This document shows positions 5,706 through 23,903 of a stretch of DNA of 44,527 nucleotides, piece by piece. Positions within the stretch are counted from its first letter, which is position 1. Every line of letters starts with the position of its first letter. This DNA comes from an uncultured Elusimicrobia bacterium. Its GTDB lineage: Bacteria > Elusimicrobiota > Elusimicrobia > JACQPE01. Below the pieces are notes generated by a model. That model saw only the letters and a list, made by a program, of their open reading frames with translations. It was not told the origin of the DNA and ran no database searches. The stretch lies in assembly GCA_964357255.1 (NCBI GenBank), contig CAYHKQ010000006.1:1-44527 (forward strand), written 5' to 3'. Position numbers and translations under genes: made by a program.

Positions 5706-5711
5706 ATTTCA

Positions 5712-7984: not shown

Positions 7985-8120
7985 TTAACGTCTCCTGGAT
8001 AAAATGTTCAGGAATTTCAGTGTCAACAATACAATTTTACTTCTTGTAATAAACGAGAGGAGGTCATCAGGCCAAACATTTCATCGAAGGCGCAATGTAG
8101 TTTAATGCTTATGAAAAATT

Positions 8121-8858
8121 ATGATTGAGAAAACCGGAGAACGGCCGATTCCTGAGCAACCTGGAACGCTCAGGGGCGTGGAGATGGACAATCTGACGCG
8201 ATATGCTTTTGCTCTGACTTACGTCGAAAACAAGACGGTCTTGGATTGCGCCTGTGGCGTGGGGTACGGCACGAGGCTGATGGCGGCCAAGGCCAATTTT
8301 GTCCAGGGCTGGGACTATTCGGCTCAATCTATTGAGGTGGCTCGCCAGCATTATTCTGTTCCCAACAGTCGTTTTGACGTGGTTGATGCGGAAAAGATTT
8401 TACCCAAGACCGTCGTTTATGACACTGTGGTCAGCTTTGAAACGATTGAGCATTTGGCTAATGGGGACCATTTTTTGCTGGAAATTCGTCAAATTTTGAA
8501 ACCCGACGGGACGCTGGTCATTTCCACACCATTCATTGACTATCGAGGTTTTTCGGGCTGGGCTTTCCATAAACGCGAATACACGCGCCGTCAGCTCTGT
8601 TTTTTATTGCGCCGGCATTTTGCCTTTATAAAGCTTTACGTGCAACCTGCCGCCGGTCTTTATATCGCGCCCTTTTCAAGAAGATTTTTTGAAGACTGCT
8701 CCACGGCTCAAACGTCCCTTATCGCGGTTTGCTCCAACCGTCCTTGCCCGGCGGTATCCTCAAGTTTTCGCCAGATCGCCCGGACTTATTTTAACGGAAT
8801 TGTTAAACGAAAAGCCAAAGACTGGCTCGGGGCGTCGGGACTCTTGAAAATCGCTTGA
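8121..8858 (+). CDS. Class I SAM-dependent methyltransferase
   Basis: TGER, RYAFA, VLDCACGVGYG, SFETIEH, LKPDGTLVISTP. Confidence 0.9.
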   Translation: MIEKTGERPIPEQPGTLRGVEMDNLTRYAFALTYVENKTVLDCACGVGYGTRLMAAKANFVQGWDYSAQSIEVARQHYSVPNSRFDVVDAEKILPKTVVYDTVVSFETIEHLANGDHFLLEIRQILKPDGTLVISTPFIDYRGFSGWAFHKREYTRRQLCFLLRRHFAFIKLYVQPAAGLYIAPFSRRFFEDCSTAQTSLIAVCSNRPCPAVSSSFRQIARTYFNGIVKRKAKDWLGASGLLKIA

Positions 8859-8868
8859 AGACGAGCCC

Positions 8869-10200
8869 ATGAAATCCCGCTTGAACGTTTTGTTCGCCGT
8901 TAATGGCGGGGGTCTTGTGGGCGGGGGCGAAAAGGTTGTGCGCCTTCTGGCCGAACACTTCAATAAGTCGTTATTTAATATTTTTGTTTGCACTTTGCGC
9001 GGCCCATTGCGTTCCAAGGTAGGCCAAGGGTGGTTTGAACAAAAAGATTTTTTGTATTTCGACGCGTTGGATAATCCGGGAAGGATAGTCCAAGCCATCG
9101 CGCGACATGAGATTGATTTGGTCAACATTCATCGTTCCGGATGGACGGACCCTCAAGAGTTGCGACCTTTTATCGAGGGCCGGGCTCCCATCATTGTTGA
9201 ACACAACATTTTTGGTTACGCGGATCCTTCGCCGGATTATCGGATGGTGGACCATGCGATTCATTTGGCAAAAAATACCTATTGGAGGCATTTGGGGTTA
9301 ATAAAAAATTTGCCGGATGCCCAGGAGCGCCGACGCAGGGCATCGGTTATTTATCCGCCGGTTGACGTGGACAAGATCCAGTCCCGTCTTGAAGTCAATA
9401 GGGCGAACGCGCAAACGCTTCGAGCTTCACTGGGCATTGCGCCGTCCGTTTTTGTCATTGGCCGTTCAGGGCGGCCTTATGAAGCAAAATTTGACGGTAT
9501 TTTGATTGACATGGTGACCCATTTGGTTAAGAAAACCAAGAACTTTCGTTTTGTGGCCATTGGGATGCCTCCCAAAAGAAAAGAGGAAGTTAAAAAAAGG
9601 GGATTGGATTCCTATTTTATTCATACTCCTTGGCCAATGAGCGATGAACGGCTTTATGAGCACTATGCGTCTTTTGATATTCATGCTCACGGCGCGCGCA
9701 TGGGGGAATGTTGTAGCGCTGTTATTGTCGAGGCCATGGCCAGCGGCTTGCCTGTTATTACCATGTCTACTCCCGACAGGGAAAACGGTCAGATTGAACA
9801 GATCGATCATGGCGTTACAGGGATTGTCGCGAATTATCCAAAAGCTTACGCCGAGGCCGTTTATTATTTGATGACCGATCCTCAGGAGCGAAAGGCTATG
9901 GGTGAGAGGGCTCGTCAGCGTTCGATGATCTATTCAGCCGGAAGGATCGCGGCGCTATACGAGAAGCTTTTTATCGAGCTGGCCTTAGCGAAAGGCATGG
10001 AGATCGGGCCGAATCTCAGAGATCATGCTACTTCCATCGCTTATTATCCAAATAGCGAAGAGGTGGAGAATTTTCCTCATGACTACTCGCGACGCCTTGG
10101 GCTCTCGTATGAAAAATGCTGGGTAACTGAGAAAGCATACTTTTACAGGAAGAAATTTCTTGAGAAATTCGTTCCTTCGCTTTTTAACGACGCGCCTTAA
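8869..10200 (+). CDS. GT4 glycosyltransferase
   Basis: GGGEKVV near the N-terminus; E-x7-E motif GECCSAVIVEAMASGLPVI; HGVTG. Confidence 0.88.
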   Translation: MKSRLNVLFAVNGGGLVGGGEKVVRLLAEHFNKSLFNIFVCTLRGPLRSKVGQGWFEQKDFLYFDALDNPGRIVQAIARHEIDLVNIHRSGWTDPQELRPFIEGRAPIIVEHNIFGYADPSPDYRMVDHAIHLAKNTYWRHLGLIKNLPDAQERRRRASVIYPPVDVDKIQSRLEVNRANAQTLRASLGIAPSVFVIGRSGRPYEAKFDGILIDMVTHLVKKTKNFRFVAIGMPPKRKEEVKKRGLDSYFIHTPWPMSDERLYEHYASFDIHAHGARMGECCSAVIVEAMASGLPVITMSTPDRENGQIEQIDHGVTGIVANYPKAYAEAVYYLMTDPQERKAMGERARQRSMIYSAGRIAALYEKLFIELALAKGMEIGPNLRDHATSIAYYPNSEEVENFPHDYSRRLGLSYEKCWVTEKAYFYRKKFLEKFVPSLFNDAP

Positions 10201-11147
10201 ATTTGTCCGAGAAGATCGTCCACGGCCCGCTCAACGGCTTTGCGGGAGTTTTCCGGAGGCGCCCAGCCTAATTTTTTAAGACGGTTGCCATCGAGGAGCA
10301 CTCGGGGCACGTCACCCACCCAGCCTCGGTCCCCTCCTGTATAGCGAATTTTAGCCGTCCGAAGACCCATTTTAGAAATGACAATTTTTGCTATAGAAGC
10401 GACATCAAGCCGGTCCGGCGGAGTAAGATTAAATACATTGATTTTTTTGCTGGAATGAATTAAGCCAAACAGTATTCCTTCCACGCAATTTTTTACATAG
10501 AGGTAGGGTTTCGCTTGTTTACCATCCCCCAAGACCAGAAGTTCTTTTGGATTACGCCGCAGTTTGTGAATAAAATCCACCAAAACCCCGTGCGTGCCGT
10601 TATAACCCACGACGTTGGCGAATCGGTAGATCCATGCCTGGAATTGATAGCTGTGGCAATAAGCCGAAATGAGGCCCTCGGCTGCCAATTTTCCAGCCCC
10701 ATAAAATGAAACGGGCTCAAGCGGGCCATAGTCTTCCGGCGTGGGAAACACGGAAGGCTCGCCCATGATGGCTGAGCTGGAGGAAAAGACAATCCGCTTG
10801 ACTCCGCATCGGCGCATTGATTCCAAAACGTTGTATGTGGCAAGGGTGCTGAGCTTCAGATCGATGTCTGTTGTCAGGGTGCTTTTTTGGATGTCGGAAT
10901 TGCAGGCCAGGTGGAAGATGATTTCGTGTCCTTGAACTGCGCGGCGCACCGCCGCTGGCTCGAGTAAATCAGCCTTAATGAAGCGAAATTTAGGATGGCT
11001 AAAAAATTTTTGTATCAACTGGCGTCGTCCCAGGAGAAAATTGTCCAAGGCCGCAACCTTCCAGCCTAATTCAAGCAGGCGGCCCACGAGATTGCTTCCG
11101 ATGAATCCGGCTCCGCCGGTGACCAGGGCAGTTTTGATGTTTGTCAT
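10197..11147 (-). CDS. NAD-dependent epimerase (extended SDR); paralogue of 18983-19957
   Basis: [32 protein letters not shown]. Confidence 0.93.
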   Translation of the reverse strand: MTNIKTALVTGGAGFIGSNLVGRLLELGWKVAALDNFLLGRRQLIQKFFSHPKFRFIKADLLEPAAVRRAVQGHEIIFHLACNSDIQKSTLTTDIDLKLSTLATYNVLESMRRCGVKRIVFSSSSAIMGEPSVFPTPEDYGPLEPVSFYGAGKLAAEGLISAYCHSYQFQAWIYRFANVVGYNGTHGVLVDFIHKLRRNPKELLVLGDGKQAKPYLYVKNCVEGILFGLIHSSKKINVFNLTPPDRLDVASIAKIVISKMGLRTAKIRYTGGDRGWVGDVPRVLLDGNRLKKLGWAPPENSRKAVERAVDDLLGQI

Positions 11148-11194
11148 GAGAGCATTAAACTTAATTATTCATTTTTCTTGAGAGTGGGCGCGTC

Positions 11195-12241
11195 TCATTG
11201 GGATGTTAATTTGCTCTTGAGACGTCGCGACAGCACGGCGAGCCCCTCCGGCGACTGGCGGAATAATGCCGTCGCAGAACCCATTCCGGCATAAATTTCG
11301 CTTCGCCAACGCCGCAATTTTTCAGATGAAGCCTGCCGCGCCTGGGCCTTAGTTCCATCTCGTCTGATTGTATCTAAAGAGGCTAAGACTGCTTTGGCCC
11401 GGCAAATGTAGGTATGCTTGGCGTGAGCCTCGCGCGCGCCGATGATGGCGATTTTTTCTCGTTCTTGCTCGTGGCTGATGAAGTAATCGGCAATCTTGAG
11501 GAGATCTTCTTCGCCGACATAGGTGAGCAGATGTGTTTTGTCGGTAAAAAGATCCAGCAGGCCATTGGCCGAGGCGTCGGTTACCAGGAGCGATCCGCTA
11601 CCCAAGGCTTCGAAAACGCGCAGGGTCAAGTCGCCGCTGACTGAGCAATTAAACACGATGCGCGATTGTTGGTAGATTTTTATGGTTTCTCGAATATCGC
11701 AGGTTTTTGAAAAATCATTTATTTTAAAACGGTTGGCCAGGGTTTTTAAAAGAAGATTTCGGCGCCGGTATCTTGGTTGCGTGGAGCCGACAAAACCGAT
11801 ATCGTAAATTTTTGGGCCGGGGTCGGGATTTATGAGGTTGGGATTAAAAGCGACGGGTAGCCATTGAGTCCAAGATCCTTGTTCCTGAAAAAATTTTAGA
11901 TAGTCTTTCTGCGCTAAAAAGGTCATATCAAAGAATTTTGCCGCGAACAGGCGCCGGTCCAGGTCAATATGAGGATCGGTCAGATAGCAGGCGGTGGGGA
12001 CCGGCAAGCGCTCGATGCCTCGCGGAAAGTAGGAAGACAAGCCGCTCTCGATATATACAAAGAGGTCAAATTGCCGGTTTTGATTGAAATACCATGCGGC
12101 GATGTCCCAATCCACGCTACCCGGGCCTTGAGGTTTATTCTTAATGAGCAATGTCGTCTCGGCCAGGCTGCCGAACGCCTCGGCCATTTCTTCGGCGGTG
12201 GTGCAGTTGGGGAAGTGTTCGTAAGAGATGAGAATTTTCAT
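11195..12241 (-). CDS. CgeB-like GT-B glycosyltransferase
   Basis: YLTDPH, WLPVAFNP, YDIGFVGS, SRIVFN, LRVFEALGSGSLLVTD, HTYICR. Confidence 0.85.
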   Translation of the reverse strand: MKILISYEHFPNCTTAEEMAEAFGSLAETTLLIKNKPQGPGSVDWDIAAWYFNQNRQFDLFVYIESGLSSYFPRGIERLPVPTACYLTDPHIDLDRRLFAAKFFDMTFLAQKDYLKFFQEQGSWTQWLPVAFNPNLINPDPGPKIYDIGFVGSTQPRYRRRNLLLKTLANRFKINDFSKTCDIRETIKIYQQSRIVFNCSVSGDLTLRVFEALGSGSLLVTDASANGLLDLFTDKTHLLTYVGEEDLLKIADYFISHEQEREKIAIIGAREAHAKHTYICRAKAVLASLDTIRRDGTKAQARQASSEKLRRWRSEIYAGMGSATALFRQSPEGLAVLSRRLKSKLTSQ

Positions 12242-12255
12242 GGCCGGCGCGGGGG

Positions 12256-12975
12256 TTAATGGATTTTATATCCGGCGGCCAACGCGTCGTTGCGGAACAT
12301 TTTGACGGTTTCCAGAGAAAAGACCGTTAAATCCTTGCCGACTGCAGAGAGTTTTTTGATGATGTCATTGGTGGCCGTGATGATGTGGCAACCAATTTTA
12401 TCGGCTTGAAAGATATTGAGAAGTTCCCGAGGACTGGCCCAGAGGAGTTCGGCGTTAGGCGCGATCCGGAGCAATCTTAACGCCTCGGTCATCAGAGGAA
12501 CGGGATCGCGGCCCGTGTCGGCGATCCGCCCCGCAAAAATAGAGACGTAGCAAGGGGCGCCTCCCTTGACCGCTTTGGCCACGCTCACGACTTGCCCCAA
12601 GGGCAACATGGCCGTGACATTGATTTTGATACCCGCATGGGAAAGCTTGTGAATCAGGGGGTAGCTGGGTTCTTGGCGCGTGTTCATTATGGGAATTTTG
12701 ACGTAGACGTTAGACCCCCACGCCGCTATGATCTTAGCCTGTTCTTCCATTTCGTTAAATTCATCCGAAAAGACCTCAAAAGAGATGGGCCGATCAGGGA
12801 TGGCCTTGAGAATCTCCCGGGAAAAAGTTTCATAATCCGTCACCCCTGACTTGCGCATTAAGGTGGGATTTGTGGTAAATCCTTTGACGATGGGGTTGCG
12901 GTACATTTCGATCATACCCGCTTTGTCCGCGCCGTCCGCAAAAATTTTGATTTTGAGATCCGATGCTTTTTTCAT
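12256..12975 (-). CDS. tal: Transaldolase (small TalC/LmbR-like type)
   Basis: FADGA, TTNPTL, Schiff-base Lys in VYVKIP, NVT, LWAS.R. Glu (SFEV) and Phe (SIFAGR) are the transaldolase-type residues rather than FSA-type. Confidence 0.92.
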   Translation of the reverse strand: MKKASDLKIKIFADGADKAGMIEMYRNPIVKGFTTNPTLMRKSGVTDYETFSREILKAIPDRPISFEVFSDEFNEMEEQAKIIAAWGSNVYVKIPIMNTRQEPSYPLIHKLSHAGIKINVTAMLPLGQVVSVAKAVKGGAPCYVSIFAGRIADTGRDPVPLMTEALRLLRIAPNAELLWASPRELLNIFQADKIGCHIITATNDIIKKLSAVGKDLTVFSLETVKMFRNDALAAGYKIH

Positions 12976-13020
12976 TATTTCAGGGATTTTCCTCTATGAG
13001 ATTGCCACAGCTTTCATCAT

Positions 13021-13575
13021 TTATAGTTTACTTTTAGATTGGCTTAAAATCCAGTTCGTGGCTTCAGGCAAAGAGGAGGCGCGATGATCAGGATGGCAAC
13101 GCTCGGCCTGGGCATAGGGATTATCAATGAGAATTGTCCGGCATCCCGCCTGCCGGCCGGCCTCAATATCCTTCCACCGGTCTCCTACCATAACACTGGA
13201 CGCAAGATCGAGGTCCCACTTGTCGCAGGCCGCAAGCAATAGGCCGGGCGCGGGTTTGCGACAGGAACAATGGTCCTGGTCGTCGTGATAGCAGACATGA
13301 ATATCGTCAAGCCGGAGCCGGCGGCGCAAAATTTCGTTGATCGCTTCTATCATTTTACGCTGTTGCAGTCCCCGTGTCACGTCGGGCTGGTTGGTGACCA
13401 TAATCAGCAACCATTTGGCATTGCGTAGTTTTCGGCAGGCCCCAGGCACGCCGGGCAAGATTACAAGATCCTTGGGGCTCGACGGCGGATGGCGCTTGTC
13501 GCCCCGCCGATAAGTCTTATTGAGAACGCCGTCGCGGTCTAAAAAAACAGCTTTTTTTATTTTACGGATTCCCAT
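13021..13575 (-). CDS. gmhB: Sugar-bisphosphate phosphatase, HAD-IIIA GmhB/LmbK-like
   Basis: FLDRDGVLN, VTNQP, CYH...CSCRKP.PG, VGDRWKD. ATG 13575 overlaps the end of the upstream gene. Confidence 0.9.
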   Translation of the reverse strand: MGIRKIKKAVFLDRDGVLNKTYRRGDKRHPPSSPKDLVILPGVPGACRKLRNAKWLLIMVTNQPDVTRGLQQRKMIEAINEILRRRLRLDDIHVCYHDDQDHCSCRKPAPGLLLAACDKWDLDLASSVMVGDRWKDIEAGRQAGCRTILIDNPYAQAERCHPDHRASSLPEATNWILSQSKSKL

Positions 13576-14156
13576 TTCATCAGGTTCGTTTGAAGTAAAG
13601 GGTGGGAAACCAGAAGGTGCCAAATGATGGCTTGAAAGGCTTCCGTGTGCGGGGTGAGCGTTTGGGGATTGACCGTGGGCACAATGACGCAGGCATCGGC
13701 CACGCTCGCCGTGTATCCGCCGTCACGGCCAACGATCCCCAGGATCCCGGCCCCCACTGTTTTGGCCAACTCCAGCGCGCGCACCAAATTAGGGCTGATG
13801 TTTTTGGCAAGACTGCCGCCTCCTACGGAGAGGACCAGGACCATATCCCTAGGCCCCAGGCGGCTGACTTCGAGCCACTTGGCGAAGACGCTGTCCCAGC
13901 CCTCATCATTGATGCGGGCGGTGATCTCTGAGACATTGTCGGTAGGGGAATAGGCCTCAATACCGCAGATTTTTCTGAAGTCGTTGACGGCATGGGAGGC
14001 GTTGCCGGCGCTACCTCCGACCCCAAGGATAAAAAGCCGTCCGCCCCGATGCCGTAGCGCGGCCAAAAGTTGGGCCATTTTTTCAATCGTTCCTTGATCG
14101 AGCCGGTCAATGATTTGGCCGGCTTCTTTTAAATATTGTTGCGCATAGGACGGCAT
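13557..14156 (-). CDS. gmhA: SIS-domain phosphosugar isomerase, GmhA/LmbN-like, non-canonical motifs
   Basis: GVGGSAGNASHAVND, TARIND.GW..VF, GRDGG. Confidence 0.85.
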   Translation of the reverse strand: MPSYAQQYLKEAGQIIDRLDQGTIEKMAQLLAALRHRGGRLFILGVGGSAGNASHAVNDFRKICGIEAYSPTDNVSEITARINDEGWDSVFAKWLEVSRLGPRDMVLVLSVGGGSLAKNISPNLVRALELAKTVGAGILGIVGRDGGYTASVADACVIVPTVNPQTLTPHTEAFQAIIWHLLVSHPLLQTNLMKWESVK

Positions 14157-14869
14157 TAGGACACCCCCTTCATTTTTGAGGCCAGATAGGCGCGGGTTTC
14201 TTCAAGGCCCCTCGGGGAGCCGATTTCGTAAAAACGCCGGGTAATCTCGTAGCCCGTTAGTTGATTGTTGTCCAGAAGTTCCTGGTAGAGGTCCGCTAAA
14301 TCGTATGGCTGGTCTATGGCCAGATGATCGAACGCCTCGCGACGGAGTAGGCCTAAACCATAATCAATGTGTTTCATATCCGGGCTTGGATTTCGTTTGT
14401 CATAGCGGATGATCCGGCCCTGGTCAAAGAGGACATTGCTTTGATCCCATTGCCCGGCATTGAGAAAGACCGTCATCAGACCCTGTTTGCCGCTTTGACG
14501 CATGGCCGCCAGAGGAGCTTGATAATCAATATCAAGATAGGTGTCGCCGTAAAGGACAAAGAATATCTCGCCGAGTTTGGGAAGGGCCTTTTTCAAGGCC
14601 CCTGCGGTGCCCAGGAGCGTGGGTCCGTCAAAAACGTAATCAATGGAAACTTTGAGGGAACGGCCATCCCCTACGGCCCGTTGGATTGCTTCGCCCATGT
14701 GGCCGGCGCAAAGGACCAAGCGTGTGAGTTGATGGCGACGTAAAAGTTCGATCTGATGTATGAGAAACGGTTTGCCGGCCACCTCGATCAAGCATTTGGG
14801 GGTGGCCTGGGTGAGGGGTCCCAGGCGCGCGCCCAGCCCTCCGCACAGGATCGCCATTGGCCAATTCAT
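14156..14869 (-). CDS. Sugar-1-phosphate nucleotidyltransferase, HddC/LmbO-like
   Basis: LCGGLGARL, PKCL, LGTAGAL, LYGDTY. Confidence 0.88.
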   Translation of the reverse strand: MNWPMAILCGGLGARLGPLTQATPKCLIEVAGKPFLIHQIELLRRHQLTRLVLCAGHMGEAIQRAVGDGRSLKVSIDYVFDGPTLLGTAGALKKALPKLGEIFFVLYGDTYLDIDYQAPLAAMRQSGKQGLMTVFLNAGQWDQSNVLFDQGRIIRYDKRNPSPDMKHIDYGLGLLRREAFDHLAIDQPYDLADLYQELLDNNQLTGYEITRRFYEIGSPRGLEETRAYLASKMKGVS

Positions 14870-15846
14870 GGGGCAATAGTTTTTGTGCCTTCGAAGTCGA
14901 AGCGAAAGCGCAGTTCGCCGATGTTGGCTCGGCGCATCGCTTGACGAAGTCGTTCCTGCTCCTCGCTGTAGAACATTAAAAATCCGCCCCCGCCGGCGCC
15001 GATGACTTTGCCTGCTAAGGCGCCGTTGGCCAGGCCTAAAGAGTGCATCTCGTCTATTTTGTTGTTCGACATGACGGAAGAGCGTTCTTTTTTGTGTTCC
15101 CAGTGCACATTCATTAGACGGGCGAATTCACGCAAGTTTCCGCTTTCTAATGCCTTTTGGCTTTCAAGCCCAAGCTCTTTGATGAAATGAAGGTTTTGAA
15201 GCATGGAGGGGTCGTCCTTTTTTGACTTATCATCTTGCTCTTTTAAAAGCGTCGAGGCTGAGCGGGAGTAGCCCGTAAAAAACAGCAAGAGGCGTTCCTG
15301 TAATTCTTTCAAGAAGGCCGCAGATATTTTAAGCGGCCATGTCTCGACGGAATCATTGTTCAGGAAACGAAAGCAAGTGATGCCTCCGTAGGCGGCAATA
15401 TAGGGGTCTTGCTTGCCGATTGGTTCATTCAAAAGGTCGTGTTCGAGGTGATAGGCCTGGGCGGCCAGGTCCCGGGGTTGAAGAGGCTGTTTGCGCAAGT
15501 TAAACAGCGCCTTGAGCAACGCCGTGGTAAAGCTACCGGAAGAGCCCAGCCCGGTGCCGGCCGGAATATCCGCCATGCTGACGATTTCGATGTTGGGCTC
15601 GGAAATGTCGGCTAATTTGAGCGCTTCGCGGATAATGGGATGCTGAACTTGGTCGCGATGGGGCACCTGTTCAATTTTGGAGTATTTAAGGACCAATTCT
15701 TGGACAAACGTTTGGTGGACGGAAATATAGACATGCTTGTCAATCGCGGCCGCGATTAAAAATCCGCCGTGTCGGCGGTAGTAGGAGGGCAGATCGGTCC
15801 CGCCGCCGCCCAGGGAAATTCTTAAGGGGCTACGCGCGATGATCAT
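14866..15846 (-). CDS. GHMP anomeric sugar kinase, HddA/LmbP-like
   Basis: PLRISLGGGGTD, PAGTGLGSSG, GKQD, GAGGGGF. Confidence 0.92.
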   Translation of the reverse strand: MIIARSPLRISLGGGGTDLPSYYRRHGGFLIAAAIDKHVYISVHQTFVQELVLKYSKIEQVPHRDQVQHPIIREALKLADISEPNIEIVSMADIPAGTGLGSSGSFTTALLKALFNLRKQPLQPRDLAAQAYHLEHDLLNEPIGKQDPYIAAYGGITCFRFLNNDSVETWPLKISAAFLKELQERLLLFFTGYSRSASTLLKEQDDKSKKDDPSMLQNLHFIKELGLESQKALESGNLREFARLMNVHWEHKKERSSVMSNNKIDEMHSLGLANGALAGKVIGAGGGGFLMFYSEEQERLRQAMRRANIGELRFRFDFEGTKTIAP

Positions 15847-16823
15847 GCTACGCGGCTCCGGTAAACTTCTTGCACGATCTCGAGGATGGCATTGGCGTCC
15901 TGCAACGTTACAGGGGCCGGCCCTTGGACGCTCACGGCACGGACAAAGGCTTCAAACTCTAGTTTCCAGGAAACATCGTCGCCCGGATAGTCCCAGTTCG
16001 TCGTTTCAGGCGGACCCATTTGAGGCAACATTTTATAGTAAACGAGTTGCTCCGTTCCATAACTGCCCCCCAGGCCCTCGAGGTGCAGTTTTCCCTGCGC
16101 GCCGTAAATTTCAAGGGAGAAAAGGTTTTTCCATTCACTGCAACTGACATGGAGCCAAGCCGCTTGTTTTGAAGGCGTTTGAAGCATGAGGAAGGCATTG
16201 TCCTCCACATTCATTTTCCAGAAATAAGTATTGGCCCATCCGTAAGCCAGGCTCAGATCACCCAAGAACCATCGCGCTAAATCAATTAAATGGACCCCCT
16301 GGTCAATGAGCTCGCCTCCTCCGGCCATTTCCGGATCAGCCCGCCATTCGCGCTCGTAACCTAAGCGTCCGCCATGTCCATAACGTCCTCGAATCATAAG
16401 GAGGGGGCCTAAGGCGCCGGAGTCAATGATTTGGCGGGCTTGGTTGGCGGCGGGATGAAACCGGTGATTGTAGCCAACGTGAACGCAAACCCTTTGGCGC
16501 TGGGCCGCGGCGATCATCGGCTTGATTTCTTGAGGGCTTCGGCCGCCTGGTTTTTCCACAAGAACATGTTTACCGGCTTCAATGGCCGCTAGGGCTATGG
16601 GGGCGAGCCATTGATTCGGGGTAGCCACAATGACGATCTCAACATTTTTTTGTTCGAGAATTTGATGCCAATCTTGGACGGCTGTGGCGCCCGGCGATTG
16701 GCGGGCGAGTTCTTGGGCGAGGGCAAGATTTGTGTCGGCGGTGGCGGCTAAGCGGTGTTTGGGTCCTAACGCTTTAAAGCGTTTTTTCCCGATTAAACCA
16801 CAACCGACGATGGCGACGTTCAT
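15843..16823 (-). CDS. Gfo/Idh/MocA oxidoreductase (LmbZ family)
   Basis: IVGCGLIG, VLVEKP, GYNHRFHP, GGGELIDQGVH. Confidence 0.92.
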   Translation of the reverse strand: MNVAIVGCGLIGKKRFKALGPKHRLAATADTNLALAQELARQSPGATAVQDWHQILEQKNVEIVIVATPNQWLAPIALAAIEAGKHVLVEKPGGRSPQEIKPMIAAAQRQRVCVHVGYNHRFHPAANQARQIIDSGALGPLLMIRGRYGHGGRLGYEREWRADPEMAGGGELIDQGVHLIDLARWFLGDLSLAYGWANTYFWKMNVEDNAFLMLQTPSKQAAWLHVSCSEWKNLFSLEIYGAQGKLHLEGLGGSYGTEQLVYYKMLPQMGPPETTNWDYPGDDVSWKLEFEAFVRAVSVQGPAPVTLQDANAILEIVQEVYRSRVA

Positions 16824-17683
16824 TCCCAGTTTTTGCCGCGATCCTCGGGTACTATGCGGCGCAAGGTATAAATGTCGCTCGCAATCAGTTCAGGGCGATA
16901 TTGTTCCAACTTGGGCCAGGGGTCCCAGACAGCGCTGATTAAGCGTCCGCTGATGCCATCGCTGGCGTTTGAGAGAAGAAAGACGCAAAGCGCGGCGCCT
17001 TTATCCAGAGGCGTTCCGCCCTCGCTTTTTTGCCGTAGCGAGCGCTCGTAAAATTCATGTCCGACTTTATCGGGCCCAGCTACAATCACTTCCTCGAGCA
17101 ATCGAGTGTTCAGGCGTCCTGGCGCTATGGCGTTGATGTCAATGTTGAGTCCTTTGGTTTCTTCGGCCAATGTGTCTGTGAGTCGAACCACCGCAGCCTT
17201 AGAAACGGCATAGGCGCTCAAATAAGGCAACGGCGCCGTGGCCCCGCCGCCGGAAAGATTGACAATTTTGCCTCGTTTTTGATTTTTAAAAATCGGTAGC
17301 ACGGTCCGGCACAAAAGCGCGGTTCCAAAAAGATTGATTTGGACGGCTTCGACCCACTCGGACCAGTTCACTTCATCAATGAACCCTTTGGGTCCGTAGA
17401 CGCCCGCATTGTTGACCAATCCGTCCAGGCTGGGGAGCGCAGTCCGGGCGGAGTTCACCCACTGCTTCACCAAGTCGGGTTTGGACACATCGAGGGGCGC
17501 CGCGAGCACCTTCTGGCCTGCCTTGGCCTGGCGCTCTAGTTCGGCTCGGGTTTGGCCTAGAAGACGGGCGTCTCTGGCGCCGAGAAAAACATGGGCTCCT
17601 TCGCTCACGCAGGCCCGAGCGATGGCCTTGCCCAGGCCCTGGCTGGCTCCGGCGATCAGGATGCCGTAATTTTTAAGCTTCAT
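16820..17683 (-). CDS. Classical SDR ketoreductase
   Basis: GASQGLG, NNAG, YAVSK, NAIAPG. Start placed at ATG 17683 (MKLK), coupled to the upstream stop. Confidence 0.92.
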   Translation of the reverse strand: MKLKNYGILIAGASQGLGKAIARACVSEGAHVFLGARDARLLGQTRAELERQAKAGQKVLAAPLDVSKPDLVKQWVNSARTALPSLDGLVNNAGVYGPKGFIDEVNWSEWVEAVQINLFGTALLCRTVLPIFKNQKRGKIVNLSGGGATAPLPYLSAYAVSKAAVVRLTDTLAEETKGLNIDINAIAPGRLNTRLLEEVIVAGPDKVGHEFYERSLRQKSEGGTPLDKGAALCVFLLSNASDGISGRLISAVWDPWPKLEQYRPELIASDIYTLRRIVPEDRGKNWE

Positions 17684-18986
17684 GGTTCGACGAAAGATGA
17701 CGGCCGACGGCGGCGTATGTGATGTTCGAGCGGCCGGCCAATGAAAATTCCAAAAAACGATTGGGGTCAATGACAATGGTTCGGCGCATGAGAGAGGCAA
17801 TTTGGCCGGCTGAGAGTTCGCGGAAAACCGGCCAAGCCGTTGCCAAGTAAAGCGCGTCGGCCCGGTGCAACGCTTCTTCGATTTTGGAACAGAGATTGAT
17901 CATGCGTTCTAATGGTCGGGGCAGTTTGCTGATTGCCGGGTCATAAGCGTGAACCTGGGCTCGATGGGTAGCCAGCCATCGGCACAATTCAATCGCGCTC
18001 GAACGCCTCAGAGTATCCGTGCCAGGTTTGTAGGTCAAGCCCAGGACGGCAATTTTTTTGCCCCAGAGGCGGCCGAGGAGTTCCTTGATTTTATGCTGAG
18101 GCCAGCTTTTGTGCGCTTCGTTGCTTGCCATGACGGCGCTCATAAGTGGTGTCGGCGCCTTTTTTTGTCGGCCCAGGTGTTCAAGAAACGTGATATCGCG
18201 CGCCAGGGTGCCGCCGGCAAAAGCGCTGCCCGGCGCGAGATAGGCTCTGGGCCCGATGCGCTCGTCGCTTTTTAAGCCGCGCTCGATTTCTTTGGCATCG
18301 GCTCCGACGCGTTCCGCCAGCGCGGCCATTTCATTGGCGAAGGCCACGGACATCCCCAAGAAAGCGTTTAAAGCATGTTTGGTCATCTCGGCGGATTCGA
18401 CGCTCATCCATTCAATGCTTCGGCTAAATGGCGCGAGCATTAGGGCTAATCGTTCTCGGTCCTTGGCTTGGCGGACGCCGGCAACGATGCGCGCGGGATG
18501 TCGGAAAGCGTCGAGGGCTTGGCCCAGGCGCAGATTTTCCGGTAAATAAGCAAAAGAAACCCGGCGGCGGGGAAAACGCTTCCGGTAGGAATGTTCGACC
18601 TGAGCGGTGAATCCTACGGGGACTTGAGAGGAAATCGCCACAAGAGCCCCTTCTTTGAGATGAGGGAAAAGCCGCGAGATTCGGTTGCGAATAAAACCGT
18701 AGTCAGCCTTATCTTTATCATTGACCGGAGTGTCAAAAGTAACCCAAATGAGATCAGCATTCCGTAGAGCGCCGGCCAATTTGGAGGTGAAGGACAATCG
18801 GCCTGAGGCAATGCCGGTTTTGATAAGTTCGTCCAATCCGTGTTCGGCCAGTGGGGCATGGCCTTGACCCAAACGCCTAATGGCGTCCGCATCGGGATCG
18901 CAACCCACAGTGGGAAAATGTTCCGCCAAGCAGGCGGCTGTCACTGAACCCAGATGCCAGAGGCCCCAGACGCAGATTTTTTTCAA
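17673..18986 (-). CDS. UDP-glucose/GDP-mannose dehydrogenase family protein lacking the catalytic Cys (LmbL family)
   Basis: UGD fold motifs SAEMTKHALNAFL, D.RIG, GLTYKPGTDTLRRS; GGSC is replaced by GGTL. TTG 18986 overlaps the upstream TGA. Confidence 0.88.
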   Translation of the reverse strand: MKKICVWGLWHLGSVTAACLAEHFPTVGCDPDADAIRRLGQGHAPLAEHGLDELIKTGIASGRLSFTSKLAGALRNADLIWVTFDTPVNDKDKADYGFIRNRISRLFPHLKEGALVAISSQVPVGFTAQVEHSYRKRFPRRRVSFAYLPENLRLGQALDAFRHPARIVAGVRQAKDRERLALMLAPFSRSIEWMSVESAEMTKHALNAFLGMSVAFANEMAALAERVGADAKEIERGLKSDERIGPRAYLAPGSAFAGGTLARDITFLEHLGRQKKAPTPLMSAVMASNEAHKSWPQHKIKELLGRLWGKKIAVLGLTYKPGTDTLRRSSAIELCRWLATHRAQVHAYDPAISKLPRPLERMINLCSKIEEALHRADALYLATAWPVFRELSAGQIASLMRRTIVIDPNRFLEFSLAGRSNITYAAVGRHLSSNHEA

Positions 18987-19957
18987 CGCCGTTCGAGAAC
19001 CCAAGCGTTGGCTTGGTGATAGCGCAGGGTGCGCGCAATTCCTTCTTCAATCGTGAGGGTCGGTTGCCACCCCAAAGACCTGATCCGTTTGGTGTCAAGG
19101 AAAATGAAAGGATTGTCTCCGACCCAGCCGCGCGCGCCGCCGGCGTAAGTGATCTTGGGACTTAAACCCAGCGCCTGGGTGATCCAGCGGATCGAGTCGT
19201 TGACCGTGCAGTAACCATCTACGCCTAAGTTGAAGATGTTGACTTTCTCAGAGGCCTTTTCGACAGCCATGAAAATGGCATTGATGCAGTCTTGAACATA
19301 GATATAGGATTTTCGCTGGGCTCCATCTCCCAAAACGTGCAGTTTTGCGGGATCGTCCAGCAGTTGTTTGTAAAAATCAAAGACATGGCCATGAGTATAG
19401 CGTTCACCCAAAATGCCGGCAAAACGAAAAATCCATGATTGAAAGTCAAAGCCTTCGCAGTAAGCCTGGATCATACCTTCGGCCGCCAGTTTTGAGGCGC
19501 CGTAGAGAGAGGTTTGAATGGGGAAAGGGGTGTCCTCCGGGGTTGGGATAACCGCGCTGTCGCCATAGATGGCTCCTGTTGAGGCAAAAGCGATGCGCTT
19601 GATAGTGTTGGCTCGCATGGCTTCGAGCACATGGTAGGTGGCGACGGTATTGTTGTCCAGGTCTTTGCGCGGATGCTCCAGGCCGAAGCGAACATCGGCA
19701 TTGGCGGCCAAGTGATAGACAAAGTGACAGCCGCTCATGGCCTTGGCCACGAGGTCGTAATCTAAAAGGTCGCCCCGGACCAGCGTGAAGGAGGGGGAAC
19801 GCCCGGCTTCTTTAAGAAATTTTTCCTGGCCTGTTGAGAAGTTGTCAAAAATAACGACCCGATGGCCTTCCCCCAGCAAGCGATCCGCTAAATTGCTGCC
19901 AATGAATCCAGCCCCGCCGGTTACGAAAATTTTTTCGCGATGATTTAAGCTAGTCAT
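18983..19957 (-). CDS. NAD-dependent epimerase (extended SDR, LmbM/GalE-like)
   Basis: [27 protein letters not shown]. Confidence 0.93.
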   Translation of the reverse strand: MTSLNHREKIFVTGGAGFIGSNLADRLLGEGHRVVIFDNFSTGQEKFLKEAGRSPSFTLVRGDLLDYDLVAKAMSGCHFVYHLAANADVRFGLEHPRKDLDNNTVATYHVLEAMRANTIKRIAFASTGAIYGDSAVIPTPEDTPFPIQTSLYGASKLAAEGMIQAYCEGFDFQSWIFRFAGILGERYTHGHVFDFYKQLLDDPAKLHVLGDGAQRKSYIYVQDCINAIFMAVEKASEKVNIFNLGVDGYCTVNDSIRWITQALGLSPKITYAGGARGWVGDNPFIFLDTKRIRSLGWQPTLTIEEGIARTLRYHQANAWVLERR

Positions 19958-19963
19958 GGTTGA

Positions 19964-19972
19964 AATGTATCA
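19964..19972 (-). promoter_or_regulatory. Putative extended -10 promoter (TGaTACATT), leaderless geometry
   Basis: 6 nt upstream of the ATG of the first gene of the sugar operon. Confidence 0.4.
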
Positions 19973-20010
19973 AATTCCTGATAGGTTGCCCCAGGGGTTC
20001 GAAGGCAAGG

Positions 20011-20724
20011 TCAACCATTCTTTGCAGGGGCTACCTTAAAGATAAATTGAAATCCAAACAGGGCAGGGCAAAGCGAATAGAACCAATGCAAAAATTTCGG
20101 GCCGAGCTTGGGGATTCTGTTCAACAACCCATTGAATTTAGGAATCCCGTTGTCCCAGTCAAAAGACCACTTCTCAATTTTTAAGCCCGCCTCTTGCAAA
20201 AGTTCTCCGGCTGTTTTCAAAGTAAAAAATTTAAGATGAGTATTGTCCAGGATGCCGCTTTCTGTGTAGTCAAAATTTCCTTTCCAGAGCTTCAGGCGAA
20301 TCGACCAGTGCGCGATATTGGGTAGGGCAATTACAAAACAACCGTTCGAACTCAGAAGCAATTTTAATCTATTGAGAACCTCTAAGGGATTTTGCAAATG
20401 TTCAAGAATGTTACTACAGAGAATGACCTCAAACCTTTCGCCCCTGCCCTCTAATTTTGACAAAACTTCTTTTGATTCAATGTCCCCGGTAATGATCCCC
20501 TCGTAAATTTCTCTTGCCTCTTCTGCTGCTTGCCGGTTTAATTCCACGCCAAAAATTTTGCAGTTTTGTTTTTCTTTTAAGTATTTTCCGATGTAGCCAT
20601 TCGCGCAACCAATTTCCAGAACTTTCTTATTTTCTCCAATCATGCGCACAATCTGCGCGTCCGCCCAGTGGGGATCCAGAGACCCGATGTCATAATTCTC
20701 GCGATGATATTTAATTTTGCTCAT
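20011..20724 (-). CDS. Class I SAM-dependent methyltransferase, AT-rich
   Basis: VLEIGCANG, ILEHLQNP, ALPNIAHW, GILDNTHLKFFT. Confidence 0.9.
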   Translation of the reverse strand: MSKIKYHRENYDIGSLDPHWADAQIVRMIGENKKVLEIGCANGYIGKYLKEKQNCKIFGVELNRQAAEEAREIYEGIITGDIESKEVLSKLEGRGERFEVILCSNILEHLQNPLEVLNRLKLLLSSNGCFVIALPNIAHWSIRLKLWKGNFDYTESGILDNTHLKFFTLKTAGELLQEAGLKIEKWSFDWDNGIPKFNGLLNRIPKLGPKFLHWFYSLCPALFGFQFIFKVAPAKNG

Positions 20725-23872: not shown

Positions 23873-23903
23873 TGCAGGGAATAATAGTAAGATTTGGGTC
23901 CAG

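What the first reader, a model, noticed from the sequence alone, without database searches (positions are those of the whole stretch)
10197..19957. Lincomycin-like GDP-octose pathway inside a surface-glycan locus
Seen: 11 co-oriented genes, mostly stop/start-coupled. In order: epimerase, Cys-less UGD-family protein, SDR, Gfo/Idh/MocA, GHMP kinase, nucleotidyltransferase, SIS isomerase, HAD phosphatase, transaldolase, CgeB-like GT, second epimerase. Known: lincosamide sugar synthesis uses LmbR (transaldolase, octulose-8-P), LmbN (isomerase), LmbP (kinase), LmbK (phosphatase), LmbO (guanylyltransferase), LmbM (epimerase), LmbL (UGD family) with LmbZ (oxidoreductase) for 6,8-dehydration, and LmbS (aminotransferase). 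Ordinary GDP-heptose synthesis needs only GmhA/HddA/GmhB/HddC. Inference: every Lmb sugar family except LmbS is present and an SDR takes its place. The product may be a neutral GDP-8-deoxy-octose transferred into a cell-envelope glycan, i.e. a primary-metabolism counterpart or ancestor of the antibiotic pathway.
Basis: partly seen in the sequence, partly recalled or inferred. Interest (0 to 1): 0.9.

Follow-up and report, generated by a model that had tools for sequence, protein, structure and literature searches.

The report
Likely octose-sugar cassette for surface glycans
A compact set of nine genes, found here and in many unrelated bacteria and some archaea, has the same enzyme make-up as the pathway that builds the eight-carbon sugar of the antibiotic lincomycin, so it probably supplies an unusual eight-carbon sugar for the cell surface.

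Summary
Eleven intact, co-oriented, mostly overlapping minus-strand genes lie at 10197-19957, in the stated order and families. The UGD-family protein has Thr where UGDs have the catalytic Cys.

The conserved unit is nine genes, not eleven: epimerase, Thr-type UGD-like, SDR, Gfo/Idh/MocA, GHMP kinase, nucleotidyltransferase, SIS isomerase, HAD phosphatase, transaldolase. All nine occur in 27 of 47 evaluable loci, and 22 of those keep the same order. Carriers are labelled as nine or more phyla, including Methanoperedens archaea, cultured Rhizobium jaguaris and Lawsonia intracellularis.

Several results argue against ordinary heptose synthesis:
- The four heptose-like enzymes score far below the curated GmhA, HddA, GmhB and HddC cut-offs.
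- The genome has its own GmhA, HldE and a second Tal/FSA.
- No evaluable locus has the cassette isomerase without a transaldolase-family gene beside it.
- The UGD-like protein is repeatedly fused to the SDR.

At family level this matches the lincomycin sugar genes, with an SDR in place of the aminotransferase LmbS.

I could not obtain any Lmb sequence, so orthology, chain length (C8 or C7) and the nucleotide are untested. Eight literature searches found no description of such a cassette.

Verdict: probably an NDP-(deoxy)octose supply module for envelope glycans (about 0.55). It is a new variant of a known kind, and testable in R. jaguaris.

The parts
18983..19957 (-). epi1: extended-SDR NAD-dependent sugar-nucleotide epimerase/dehydratase family (the LmbM-like role)
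   Evidence: Pfam Epimerase 173 bits. GalE model 154 bits, below its cut-off of 262. Matched in 69 of 80 related loci at 60-70% identity (one 24% match apart), usually directly upstream of ugdL.
17673..19004 (-). ugdL: UDP-glucose/GDP-mannose-dehydrogenase-family protein with Thr in place of the catalytic Cys (motif GGTLARD). The likely start is TTG 18986.
   Evidence: All three UGD Pfam domains. TIGR03026 285.8 bits, above its cut-off of 189.8. Cys to Thr against 4a7p. 145 of 151 aligned rows (150 representatives plus the query) have Thr at this column. Start positions.
16820..17800 (-). sdr: classical short-chain dehydrogenase/reductase, proposed ketoreductase. The likely start is ATG 17683.
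   Evidence: adh_short 161 bits. Next to ugdL in 75 of 80 loci. Fused to ugdL in 5 of 150 representatives, in both orders, and in 2 longer proteins.
15843..16823 (-). gfo: Gfo/Idh/MocA NAD(P) oxidoreductase (the LmbZ-like role)
   Evidence: GFO_IDH_MocA N- and C-terminal domains. Matched in 65 of 80 loci. The nearest solved relatives are sugar 3-dehydrogenase-type enzymes at 105 bits or less.
14866..15846 (-). ghmp: GHMP sugar kinase, anomeric kinase of a higher-carbon sugar phosphate (the LmbP/HddA-like role)
   Evidence: GHMP N and C domains. HddA model 169.8 bits against a cut-off of 600. The nearest solved structure, 3k85, is a heptose-phosphate kinase at 176 bits.
14156..14869 (-). ntp: sugar-1-phosphate nucleotidyltransferase; the nucleotide is unknown (the LmbO/HddC-like role)
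   Evidence: NTP_transferase. HddC model 73.5 bits against a cut-off of 300; MurU model 112.5 against 250. PDB relatives are mixed UDP and GDP enzymes at 70 bits or less.
13557..14156 (-). sis: SIS-domain ketose/aldose phosphate isomerase (the LmbN/GmhA-like role)
   Evidence: SIS_2 34 bits. GmhA TIGR00441 57.8 bits against a cut-off of 209.45. The genome has a separate GmhA scoring 206.8 bits on contig C47. The nearest structures are GmhA at 51 bits or less.
13021..13623 (-). had: HAD-IIIA phosphatase (the LmbK/GmhB-like role). The likely start is ATG 13575.
   Evidence: HAD Pfam families. GmhB NF006506 118.5 bits against a cut-off of 178; the HAD-IIIA domain model is passed. This is the least conserved member, at 29-53% identity in other loci.
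12256..12975 (-). tal: small transaldolase of the TIGR02134 type (the LmbR-like role)
   Evidence: TAL_FSA 135 bits. TIGR02134 335.1 bits, above its cut-off of 281.95. Lies in a starred clade of 41 rows, most of them cassette tals, apart from the stand-alone S. aureus and Treponema tals. Found beside the cassette sis in 36 of 80 loci, and never missing where this could be judged.
11195..12241 (-). gt: Glyco_trans_1_2 (CgeB-like) glycosyltransferase. It is locus-specific and not part of the conserved cassette. It is a candidate transferase here.
   Evidence: PF13524 73.9 bits. No NCBIfam family. One weak match (28% identity) in the 80 loci.
10197..11147 (-). epi2: second extended-SDR epimerase/dehydratase, a paralogue of epi1. 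It is not part of the conserved cassette.
   Evidence: Pfam Epimerase 149 bits. In other loci its tblastn matches fall on the epi1 gene, at 38-47% identity.
20011..20724 (-). SAM-dependent methyltransferase directly upstream on the same strand; possibly O-methylates the sugar
   Evidence: Methyltransf_23 71 bits. Unrelated methyltransferase families flank the cassette in 14 and 11 other loci.
20746..23938 (-). PMT_2 (GT-C) glycosyltransferase (20746-22452) and Wzx-type flippase (22418-23938), upstream on the same strand. These are glycan-assembly genes that the cassette is plugged into.
   Evidence: PMT_2 and Polysacc_synt Pfam hits. No homologues in the flanks of the other 80 loci.

Best explanation
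Genes 12256-19957 are a self-contained, laterally mobile nine-gene module. It most likely makes a nucleotide-activated eight-carbon sugar for a cell-envelope glycan, by the same logic as the sugar branch of lincomycin biosynthesis. Only the gene content, its conservation and the sequence features are shown here. Every chemical step below is inferred.

Front half, inferred from the families and the Lmb precedent:
1. The transaldolase joins a C3 unit from fructose-6-P or sedoheptulose-7-P to ribose-5-P, giving octulose-8-P.
2. The SIS isomerase makes the aldose.
3. The GHMP kinase phosphorylates C1.
4. The HAD phosphatase removes the terminal phosphate.
5. The nucleotidyltransferase makes the NDP-octose. 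GDP is suggested only by analogy.

Back half, also inferred:
6. The Thr-type UGD-like enzyme oxidises the C6 hydroxyl. In a higher-carbon sugar this is a secondary alcohol. It can only become a ketone, so the thiol needed for a second oxidation is dispensable.
7. With the Gfo/Idh/MocA partner, water is lost across C7-C8, giving a 6-keto-8-deoxy intermediate.
8. The classical SDR, which is often fused to the UGD-like protein, reduces the ketone. In lincomycin synthesis an aminotransferase would aminate it instead.
9. The epimerase sets the configuration.

The product, a neutral NDP-8-deoxy-octose or a close relative, is then used by locus-specific glycosyltransferases. It may be O-methylated, and it is exported by the Wzx and GT-C machinery of this locus.
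For: 1. Family content and order are as stated. They map one-to-one onto the published Lmb roles R, N, P, K, O, M, L and Z (PMC12945683 Table 1 and PMC4351081 Table 2, passages read).

2. The nine genes are a conserved unit. Of 47 loci with enough flank, 27 hold all nine, 22 hold them in the same order within 9 kb, and 34 hold eight or more. Record titles place the carriers in Acidobacteriota, Chloroflexota, Myxococcota, Nitrospirota, Planctomycetota, Bacillota, Pseudomonadota, Kiritimatiellae, Lentisphaerae and Methanoperedens. All nine are also in R. jaguaris CCGE525, colinear, and in Lawsonia intracellularis, rearranged.

3. These are not the ordinary heptose enzymes. Scores against curated cut-offs are GmhA 57.8/209, HddA 169.8/600, GmhB 118.5/178 and HddC 73.5/300. 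The same genome has a separate GmhA (206.8 bits) and an HldE kinase domain (345.6 bits, over its cut-off).

4. The transaldolase is integral to the module.
- In the 80 loci, the cassette sis and tal (each at 45% identity or more) co-occur in 36.
- The 4 loci with sis only all end at or near the contig edge, or hold a distant Tal/FSA gene in that position.
- Among five genomes whose ugdL locus lacked the front half, three have a cassette-type tal and ghmp elsewhere. In two of these a cassette-type sis lies beside tal. In the third (G023) no cassette-type sis was found.
- The other two genomes lack tal, sis and ghmp together.
- G000, G023, G024 and G025 each also carry another Tal/FSA homologue.

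5. The UGD-like protein belongs to a large subfamily defined by GGTLxRD: 145 of 151 aligned rows have Thr. It is fused to the SDR in 5 of the 150 representatives and in 2 of 13 longer proteins.

6. All proteins keep the usual family motifs, read directly from the translations.
Against: - No Lmb or Ccb sequence could be compared, so the match is by family and role only.
- The nearest solved and curated relatives of four front-half enzymes are heptose-pathway enzymes.
- The transaldolase is 50-52% identical to stand-alone, presumably housekeeping, transaldolases of S. aureus and Treponema. Its chemistry could therefore be ordinary sedoheptulose-7-P formation.
- The ugdL-sdr pair exists without any cassette-type tal, sis or ghmp in 2 of 5 genomes checked. 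These are MAGs of unstated completeness. The back half is therefore not strictly tied to an octose.
- No linear octose from such a route turned up in prokaryotic glycans in the searches I ran.
- Nucleotide specificity, the product and expression are all untested.
Confidence: 0.55

Rival explanations
1. The cassette makes a modified NDP-heptose. The SIS, GHMP, HAD and NTP enzymes act on sedoheptulose-7-P as divergent GmhA/HddA/GmhB/HddC enzymes. The transaldolase only boosts the sedoheptulose-7-P supply. The UGD-like, Gfo, SDR and epimerase enzymes oxidise and re-reduce C6 or C4, giving for example a 6-epi or deoxy heptose.
For: The closest curated and solved relatives of all four front-half enzymes are heptose enzymes. 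The transaldolase passes the TIGR02134 model, which also covers stand-alone transaldolases 50-52% identical to it. C6 of a heptose is also a secondary alcohol, so the Cys-to-Thr argument does not tell C7 from C8.
Against: All four proteins are far below the equivalog cut-offs. The genome already has GmhA, HldE and another Tal/FSA. A Tal-family gene accompanies the cassette sis in every locus where this could be judged, whereas known GDP-heptose clusters need no transaldolase (recalled, not from a call). The full correspondence with the Lmb set, including the UGD-like and Gfo members, would then be a coincidence.
Confidence: 0.25
2. There are two independent modules that merely travel together. 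The front half (tal, sis, ghmp, had, ntp) makes one activated higher sugar. The back half (epi1, ugdL, sdr, gfo) tailors a different, common sugar nucleotide such as a hexose or N-acetylhexosamine derivative.
For: The ugdL-sdr pair occurs with no front half in the locus in several Bryobacteraceae and Polyangia loci. It occurs with no cassette-type tal, sis or ghmp anywhere in 2 of 5 genomes checked. ugdL is also fused to GT2 or GT4-type glycosyltransferases.
Against: In 22 of 47 evaluable loci the nine genes are contiguous in one fixed order, with translational coupling here. Three of the five 'split' genomes carry the front half elsewhere. The same pairing of UGD-like and Gfo genes with a tal, SIS and kinase set recurs in a differently built cluster of relative G004.
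Confidence: 0.12
3. The transaldolase uses another aldose-phosphate acceptor, for example a hexose-6-P, so the product is a C9 or otherwise different higher-carbon sugar rather than an octose.
For: Transaldolases transfer a C3 unit to various aldose phosphates (general knowledge). Nothing in the sequence fixes the acceptor.
Against: The only characterised pathway with this gene set uses ribose-5-P and gives C8 (roles as listed in PMC12945683 and PMC4351081; the acceptor is recalled from papers that are not held).
Confidence: 0.05

Closest known systems
Sugar branch of lincomycin/celesticetin biosynthesis (LmbR, N, P, K, O, then LmbM, LmbL, LmbZ/CcbZ, LmbS/CcbS) in Streptomyces
   Same: It has the same eight enzyme families with the same presumed roles: transaldolase, SIS isomerase, GHMP kinase, HAD phosphatase, nucleotidyltransferase, epimerase, UGD-family dehydrogenase and Gfo/Idh/MocA oxidoreductase (against the tables read).
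   Different: - There is no DegT aminotransferase in the cassette; a classical SDR takes that place and is often fused to the UGD-like protein.
- There are no carrier-protein, thiol-conjugation or amino-acid genes.
- It sits in glycan-assembly loci of many phyla rather than in an actinomycete antibiotic cluster.
- Sequence kinship was not tested.
GDP-D-glycero-alpha-D-manno-heptose pathway (GmhA, HddA, GmhB, HddC) of S-layer, capsule and O-antigen loci
   Same: It uses the same four protein superfamilies and the same order of chemistry: isomerise, phosphorylate C1, remove the terminal phosphate, add the nucleotide. These are the nearest solved relatives.
   Different: All four proteins fall well below the curated equivalog cut-offs. 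A transaldolase is always attached. The genome has separate GmhA and HldE genes.
UDP-glucose/GDP-mannose 6-dehydrogenases (e.g. PDB 4a7p, 3gg2)
   Same: It has the same three-domain fold family. The conserved Lys, Asn and Asp of the active-site stretches are kept in the alignment. The roles of these residues are recalled.
   Different: The catalytic Cys is Thr in this protein and in 145 of 151 aligned rows of its subfamily. Four-electron oxidation to a uronic acid is therefore not expected.
WbpA/WbpB/WbpE-type trio (UGD-family dehydrogenase, Gfo/Idh/MocA dehydrogenase, aminotransferase) of UDP-ManNAc3NAcA synthesis (recalled, not from a call)
   Same: A UGD-family enzyme and a Gfo/Idh/MocA enzyme are paired for tailoring a sugar nucleotide.
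   Different: In that trio the UGD member keeps Cys and makes a uronic acid, and an aminotransferase follows. Here Cys is lost and an SDR follows.

Membership tests
Lincosamide-type NDP-octose pathway (Lmb/Ccb sugar branch) | A transaldolase clustered with an SIS isomerase, GHMP kinase, HAD phosphatase and nucleotidyltransferase | tested here: met
   Pfam and NCBIfam assignments. Co-occurrence in 36 of 80 loci, with no evaluable exception.
Lincosamide-type NDP-octose pathway (Lmb/Ccb sugar branch) | Tailoring set of an epimerase, a UGD-family protein and a Gfo/Idh/MocA protein in the same cluster | tested here: met
   Colinear in 22 of 47 evaluable loci.
Lincosamide-type NDP-octose pathway (Lmb/Ccb sugar branch) | A C6 aminotransferase (LmbS/CcbS, DegT family) | tested here: not met
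   No DegT gene lies in the cassette. With a DegT query, 7 of the 80 loci have a match, and all matches lie outside the nine-gene block.
Lincosamide-type NDP-octose pathway (Lmb/Ccb sugar branch) | Orthology of each protein to its Lmb/Ccb counterpart (reciprocal hits, trees) | not testable with these tools
   No Lmb or Ccb sequence could be fetched. The attempts were. PDB holds none.
Lincosamide-type NDP-octose pathway (Lmb/Ccb sugar branch) | Octulose-8-P and GDP-octose as intermediates | not testable with these tools
   This needs enzyme assays.
GDP-glycero-manno-heptose pathway (GmhA/HddA/GmhB/HddC) | Each protein reaches the curated equivalog score | tested here: not met
   Scores against cut-offs are 57.8/209.45, 169.8/600, 118.5/178 and 73.5/300.
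GDP-glycero-manno-heptose pathway (GmhA/HddA/GmhB/HddC) | Superfamily membership (SIS, GHMP, HAD-IIIA, NTP_transferase) | tested here: met
   The nearest structures are heptose enzymes.
UDP-glucose/GDP-mannose 6-dehydrogenase | Catalytic cysteine nucleophile in the GGxCxxKD stretch | tested here: not met
   Thr in AGGTLARD against Cys in 4a7p. Thr in 145 of 151 aligned rows.
UDP-glucose/GDP-mannose 6-dehydrogenase | Three-domain architecture (N-terminal, central, C-terminal) | tested here: met
   PF03721, PF00984 and PF03720. TIGR03026 285.8 bits, above its cut-off of 189.8.
TIGR02134 small transaldolase | Score over the curated cut-off | tested here: met
   335.1 bits against 281.95.

The most novel reading that the evidence does not exclude
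A nine-gene cassette, spread by lateral transfer through at least nine bacterial phyla and Methanoperedens archaea, makes a nucleotide-activated linear 8-deoxy-octose. This would be a class of monosaccharide not yet recorded in prokaryotic surface glycans. The lincosamide antibiotic sugar pathway would then be an offshoot of this envelope pathway, in which an aminotransferase replaced the ketoreductase. A second, ADP-heptose-style version exists in a relative of this genome. It has an HldE-like kinase/adenylyltransferase, a DegT aminotransferase, a radical SAM enzyme and an Asn-type UGD-like protein.
Probability: 0.4. Interest if true: 0.85.

Novelty: new variant of a known kind. Interest (0 to 1): 0.75.

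Why it matters
If the product is a C8 sugar, linear octoses stop being a curiosity of one antibiotic family and become a widespread building block of bacterial and archaeal envelopes. This would bear on how glycan composition is analysed, since C8 deoxy sugars are easily missed. It would also bear on phage and immune recognition of these surfaces, and on where the lincosamide sugar pathway came from. It defines a large Thr-type branch of the UGD family with a predicted non-uronic-acid chemistry. The cassette is present in a cultured, harmless rhizobium (R. jaguaris CCGE525), so the prediction can be tested directly by knock-out and sugar analysis.

Tried and rejected
1. Getting Lmb/Ccb sequences for reciprocal searches and trees.
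- The two search for homologous proteins lists at near lengths held no Streptomyces entry.
- The 20 representatives looked up by exact sequence carried no actinomycete name.
- The most GC-rich representative, P0267, turned out to be an orphan.
- PDB holds no Lmb sugar enzyme among the hits.
- The genome search cannot be centred on a named genus: 'of' needs a G handle, and plasmid loci only get W handles.
- The one Streptomyces plasmid with a TIGR02134-type tal (L088) is not a lincosamide cluster.

2. Primary papers on LmbR/N, LmbK/O and LmbM/L/CcbZ/CcbS are not held. What I say about acceptor sugars and the 6,8-dehydration is recalled, or comes from the review passages. Supplements were not opened.

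3. ESM Atlas search with sis gave only generic 'SIS domain' clusters.

4. Expression: no RNA holder was listed for the stretch.

5. A DegT-for-SDR swap inside the cassette was looked for and not found in the 80 loci.

6. The idea that the flanking GT, methyltransferase, Wzx or PMT_2 genes travel with the cassette is rejected. They have no homologues, or only weak ones, in the other loci.

7. Structure prediction, fold search and complex prediction were not used. The folds are clear from sequence, and I claim no binding.

9. Literature. Eight searches found no paper describing this cassette or a linear octose made this way outside antibiotics. The library lacks most subscription journals, so this is not proof of absence.

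Full report
WHAT IS THERE. Pfam assigns them, from 19957 downwards, as follows:
- an extended-SDR epimerase (epi1);
- a three-domain UDP-glucose/GDP-mannose-dehydrogenase-family protein (ugdL);
- a classical SDR (sdr);
- a Gfo/Idh/MocA oxidoreductase (gfo);
- a GHMP kinase (ghmp);
- a nucleotidyltransferase (ntp);
- an SIS isomerase (sis);
- a HAD phosphatase (had);
- a transaldolase (tal);
- a Glyco_trans_1_2 glycosyltransferase (gt);
- a second epimerase (epi2).

Start-codon inspection shows ATGA-type overlaps at sdr/gfo, gfo/ghmp and ghmp/ntp, and a 1-nt overlap at ntp/sis. The likely true starts are TTG 18986 for ugdL, ATG 17683 for sdr and ATG 13575 for had. With these starts, the other junctions are abutting or nearly so. 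The 423-residue version of ugdL found in the protein collection (P0001) would start at GTG 18944, inside the first glycine-rich loop, and so looks too short.

The 'Cys-less' remark is correct. Against the solved UGD 4a7p, the stretch 'GGSCFPKD' reads 'AGGTLARD'. The other UGD-family gene of the window (23856-25211, plus strand) keeps Cys.

SURROUNDINGS. The window is a large envelope-glycan region of a diderm bacterium. It holds:
- an AsmA/YhdP-like gene at 226-2484;
- GT2, GT4 and GT9-like glycosyltransferases;
- three PMT_2 (GT-C) genes;
- a Wzx-type flippase;
- several methyltransferases;
- a Cys-bearing UGD-family gene with an epimerase and a GT2;
- a nucleotidyltransferase followed by two epimerase/dehydratase-family (extended SDR) genes.

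On the minus strand the run Wzx, PMT_2, methyltransferase, cassette, gt, epi2 (23938 to 10197) is uninterrupted.

THE CONSERVED UNIT IS NINE GENES. Of these, 543 encode relatives, and the best 80 loci were kept. Their record titles name Bryobacteraceae and other Acidobacteriota, Chloroflexota, Myxococcota, Nitrospirota, Planctomycetota, Bacillota, Pseudomonadota, Kiritimatiellae, Lentisphaerae, Cyanobacteria-related lineages and three Methanoperedens archaea.

tblastn with the eleven window proteins gave these results:
- 47 of the 80 loci had at least 1 kb upstream and 7.3 kb downstream of ugdL, and so could be evaluated.
- 27 of the 47 hold all nine genes from epi1 to tal.
- 22 hold them in the window's order within 9 kb.
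- 34 hold at least eight.
- 31 hold ghmp, ntp, sis and tal.
- Identities run from about 29% (had) to 73% (sis).
- gt has one weak match in the 80 loci, and epi2 only cross-matches the epi1 gene.

The window's flanking methyltransferase, PMT_2, Wzx and GT genes have no homologues, or only weak ones, in the other loci. There the flanks most often carry GT2 genes (families seen in 17 and 12 loci), a methyltransferase-GT2 fusion (13 loci) and methyltransferases (14 and 11 loci). The cassette is therefore a portable sugar-supply module that plugs into different assembly loci.

Three more results bear on its distribution:
- Cultured carriers exist. Rhizobium jaguaris CCGE525 has all nine colinear on its 2.58-Mb replicon, at 48-70% identity. 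Rhizobium sp. CB3060 matched with ugdL and tal only; the other genes were not examined there. Lawsonia intracellularis has all nine, rearranged, on plasmid 3.
- Within the window's own class, 7 of 150 other genomes sampled have a ugdL-type match (E of 1e-90 or lower, 41-54% identity), and 0 of 6 in its own family do.
- The best matches come from other phyla (62% identity).

The transaldolase tree likewise mixes phyla. The distribution is patchy and looks lateral.

WHY NOT ORDINARY HEPTOSE SYNTHESIS.
- The nearest curated and solved relatives of sis, ghmp, had and ntp are GmhA, HddA, GmhB and HddC, but every score is far under the curated cut-off: 57.8/209.45, 169.8/600, 118.5/178 and 73.5/300.
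- The same genome has a separate GmhA on C47 (206.8 bits, just under the cut-off), an HldE kinase domain on C67 (345.6 bits, over it) and a second Tal/FSA gene on C52 (36% identity). The cassette copies are therefore extra paralogues.
- The transaldolase is tied to the isomerase. Among the 80 loci, cassette-type sis and tal (each at 45% identity or more) co-occur in 36. Of the 4 loci with sis only, 3 end within 2.6 kb of sis, and the fourth (L071) has a distant Tal/FSA gene (30% identity) in that position. Two loci have tal only, one of them at a locus edge.

I also searched five genomes whose ugdL locus lacked the front half:
- Three have a cassette-type tal (59-63% identity) and ghmp elsewhere. 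In two of these a cassette-type sis lies beside tal. In the third, no cassette-type sis was found.
- Two have no cassette-type tal, sis or ghmp at all. These are MAGs whose completeness was not given.

Known GDP-heptose clusters carry no transaldolase. That statement is recalled, not from a call.

THE UGD-LIKE PROTEIN AND ITS PARTNERS. A search of 1.84 billion representative proteins gave 2947 hits at E of 1e-30 or lower. In an alignment of the best 150 plus the query, 145 of 151 rows have Thr at the Cys column, within a GGTLxRD motif. The other six rows have one Cys, one Ala, one Ser, one Arg and two gaps.

Fusions link ugdL to the SDR and to glycosyltransferases:
- Five of the 150 representatives are fusions with a classical SDR. 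Two have the SDR first and three have it last.
- Among 13 longer relatives, two more are SDR fusions.
- One longer relative is fused to a GT2 and one to a GT4-type glycosyltransferase.
- One ORF combines Gfo, a UGD fragment and SDR domains. This may be a merged gene call.

A UGD-family enzyme without its thiol cannot carry out the second oxidation to an acid. In a heptose or octose, C6 is a secondary alcohol, so a single oxidation to a ketone is all that is possible. This reasoning is mine.

COMPARISON WITH THE LINCOMYCIN PATHWAY. From the review PMC12945683 (introduction and Table 1, passages) and PMC4351081 (Table 2, passages) I take these roles:
- LmbR is the transaldolase.
- LmbN is the isomerase.
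- LmbP is the kinase.
- LmbK is the phosphatase.
- LmbO is the nucleotidyl (guanylyl) transferase.
- LmbM is the epimerase.
- LmbL is the dehydrogenase.
- LmbZ is the oxidoreductase.
- LmbS is the aminotransferase.

From the same sources I take that LmbM, LmbL, CcbZ and CcbS convert GDP-octose to GDP-lincosamide. The details of ribose-5-P as acceptor and of a 6,8-dehydration are recalled, because the primary papers are not held.

Eight of the nine cassette families match eight of the nine Lmb families. The ninth, an SDR, is the natural substitute for an aminotransferase acting on a keto sugar. No DegT gene lies inside the cassette in any of the 80 loci.

I could not fetch a single Lmb or Ccb sequence (see Tried and rejected). 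The correspondence therefore rests on family and role.

MOST LIKELY MECHANISM (inferred).
1. tal joins a C3 unit to ribose-5-P, giving octulose-8-P.
2. sis makes the aldose.
3. ghmp phosphorylates C1.
4. had removes the 8-phosphate.
5. ntp makes the NDP-octose.
6. ugdL and gfo oxidise C6 and remove the C8 hydroxyl.
7. sdr reduces the 6-ketone, and epi1 sets stereocentres.
8. Locus-specific glycosyltransferases and methyltransferases use the product.

I put this at about 0.55. The rivals are these:
- A modified NDP-heptose, with tal as a sedoheptulose-7-P supplier (0.25). The heptose-like nearest relatives and the 50-52% identity of tal to stand-alone S. aureus and Treponema transaldolases speak for it.
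- Two independent modules (0.12). The ugdL-sdr pairs that stand alone speak for it.
- Another chain length (0.05).

In the tal tree, the window and most cassette tals fall in a starred clade of 41 rows. That clade also holds two rows that are not cassette tals: the G004 variant and the long-branched Streptomyces plasmid tal. The Bacillota and Methanoperedens cassette tals lie outside it. The S. aureus, Treponema and G009/G019 tals form a separate group with weaker support (93/78). The tree is unrooted, apart from distant Tal/FSA rows.

A SECOND VERSION IN A RELATIVE. Genome G004, in the same family as the window's genome, has a differently built cluster (L110). It contains:
- a DegT aminotransferase;
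- an ABC exporter;
- sis (57% identity);
- had (41%);
- a 650-residue radical SAM protein;
- tal (58%);
- two extended SDRs;
- a cytidylyltransferase-like plus PfkB kinase fusion, which is HldE-like with the domains reversed;
- a Gfo/Idh/MocA protein;
- a UGD-like protein with Asn at the Cys column;
- an epimerase.

This pairs tal and sis with the ADP-heptose style of activation, and again with Cys-less UGD-like and Gfo partners. It suggests a wider family of transaldolase-fed higher-sugar pathways.

NOVELTY AND VERDICT. Eight full-text searches found no description of such a cassette outside lincosamide work. The library lacks most subscription journals. I rate it a new variant of a known kind, with interest 0.75. 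The gene-content match, its breadth and the Thr-type UGD subfamily are solid. Chain length, nucleotide, product and kinship to Lmb remain to be shown. A cultured, harmless carrier makes the test straightforward.

Noticed in passing
L110 (G004:C34:14000-33999), about 600-16450: A same-family relative has a variant cluster. It holds a CBS-NTP transferase, DegT aminotransferase, ABC exporter, sis (57% identity), had (41%), a 650-aa radical SAM protein, tal (58%), two extended SDRs, a cytidylyltransferase-like+PfkB (HldE-like, domains reversed) protein, Gfo/Idh/MocA, a UGD-like protein with Asn at the catalytic-Cys column (AGGNIERD), and an epimerase. It is possibly an ADP-activated amino version of the same idea.
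   Followed up: partly
L108 (G019:C8) 5900-12800 and L109 (G009:C25): In two same-class relatives, a TIGR02134-type transaldolase (52-53% identity) sits among extended SDRs and a true Cys-bearing UGD (GGFCFPKD), with no sis, ghmp, had or ntp homologues in 20 kb. Why a glycan locus needs a transaldolase there is unexplained.
   Followed up: partly
window 17673-19004 (-): The protein collection holds this gene as a 423-residue product (P0001), which would start at GTG 18944 inside the first glycine-rich NAD loop. TTG 18986, abutting the epi1 stop, fits the homologue alignments better.
   Followed up: partly
window 6392-7984 (-), 20746-22452 (-), 37056-38762 (-): There are three PMT_2 (GT-C, ArnT/PMT-like) membrane glycosyltransferase genes in one 44-kb window. 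This suggests several periplasmic-side glycosylation steps on lipid or protein acceptors.
   Followed up: no
window 23856-26867 (+): A divergently transcribed trio: a Cys-bearing UGD-family dehydrogenase, a GDP_Man_Dehyd/Epimerase-family protein and a GT2. This looks like a separate uronic-acid-type sugar branch.
   Followed up: no
window 28210-29271 (+); G000:C47:6478-6933; G000:C67:4192-5142: The window has a GT9 (heptosyltransferase-like) gene. Elsewhere in the genome there is a near-canonical GmhA and an HldE kinase domain. The organism probably also makes ordinary ADP-heptose for an LPS-like core.
   Followed up: partly
window 34404-36221 (+), 41103-42023 (-), 43505-44374 (-): Three sizeable ORFs (605, 306 and 289 aa) have no Pfam family at E of 1e-6 or lower. 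The 605-aa ORF lies inside the glycan region and could be a polymerase or ligase-type membrane protein.
   Followed up: no
P0402, P0403, P0382, P0413 (proteins): Thr-type UGD-like proteins also occur fused to a GT2, to a GT4-type glycosyltransferase and to an extended-SDR epimerase. One ORF joins Gfo, a UGD fragment and SDR domains, which may be a merged gene call.
   Followed up: no
L083 (Lawsonia intracellularis plasmid 3, NC_008014.1) 750-20600: All nine cassette genes are present but rearranged. They are interleaved with a lysyl-PG-synthase-like membrane protein and two ~1090-aa hypothetical proteins, and lie next to a methyltransferase, a GH99-like protein and a GT2.
   Followed up: partly
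G092:C222:4942-5934: The ugdL-type match in this same-class genome carries one in-frame TGA and covers only residues 2-330. It is either a broken copy or an assembly error.
   Followed up: no
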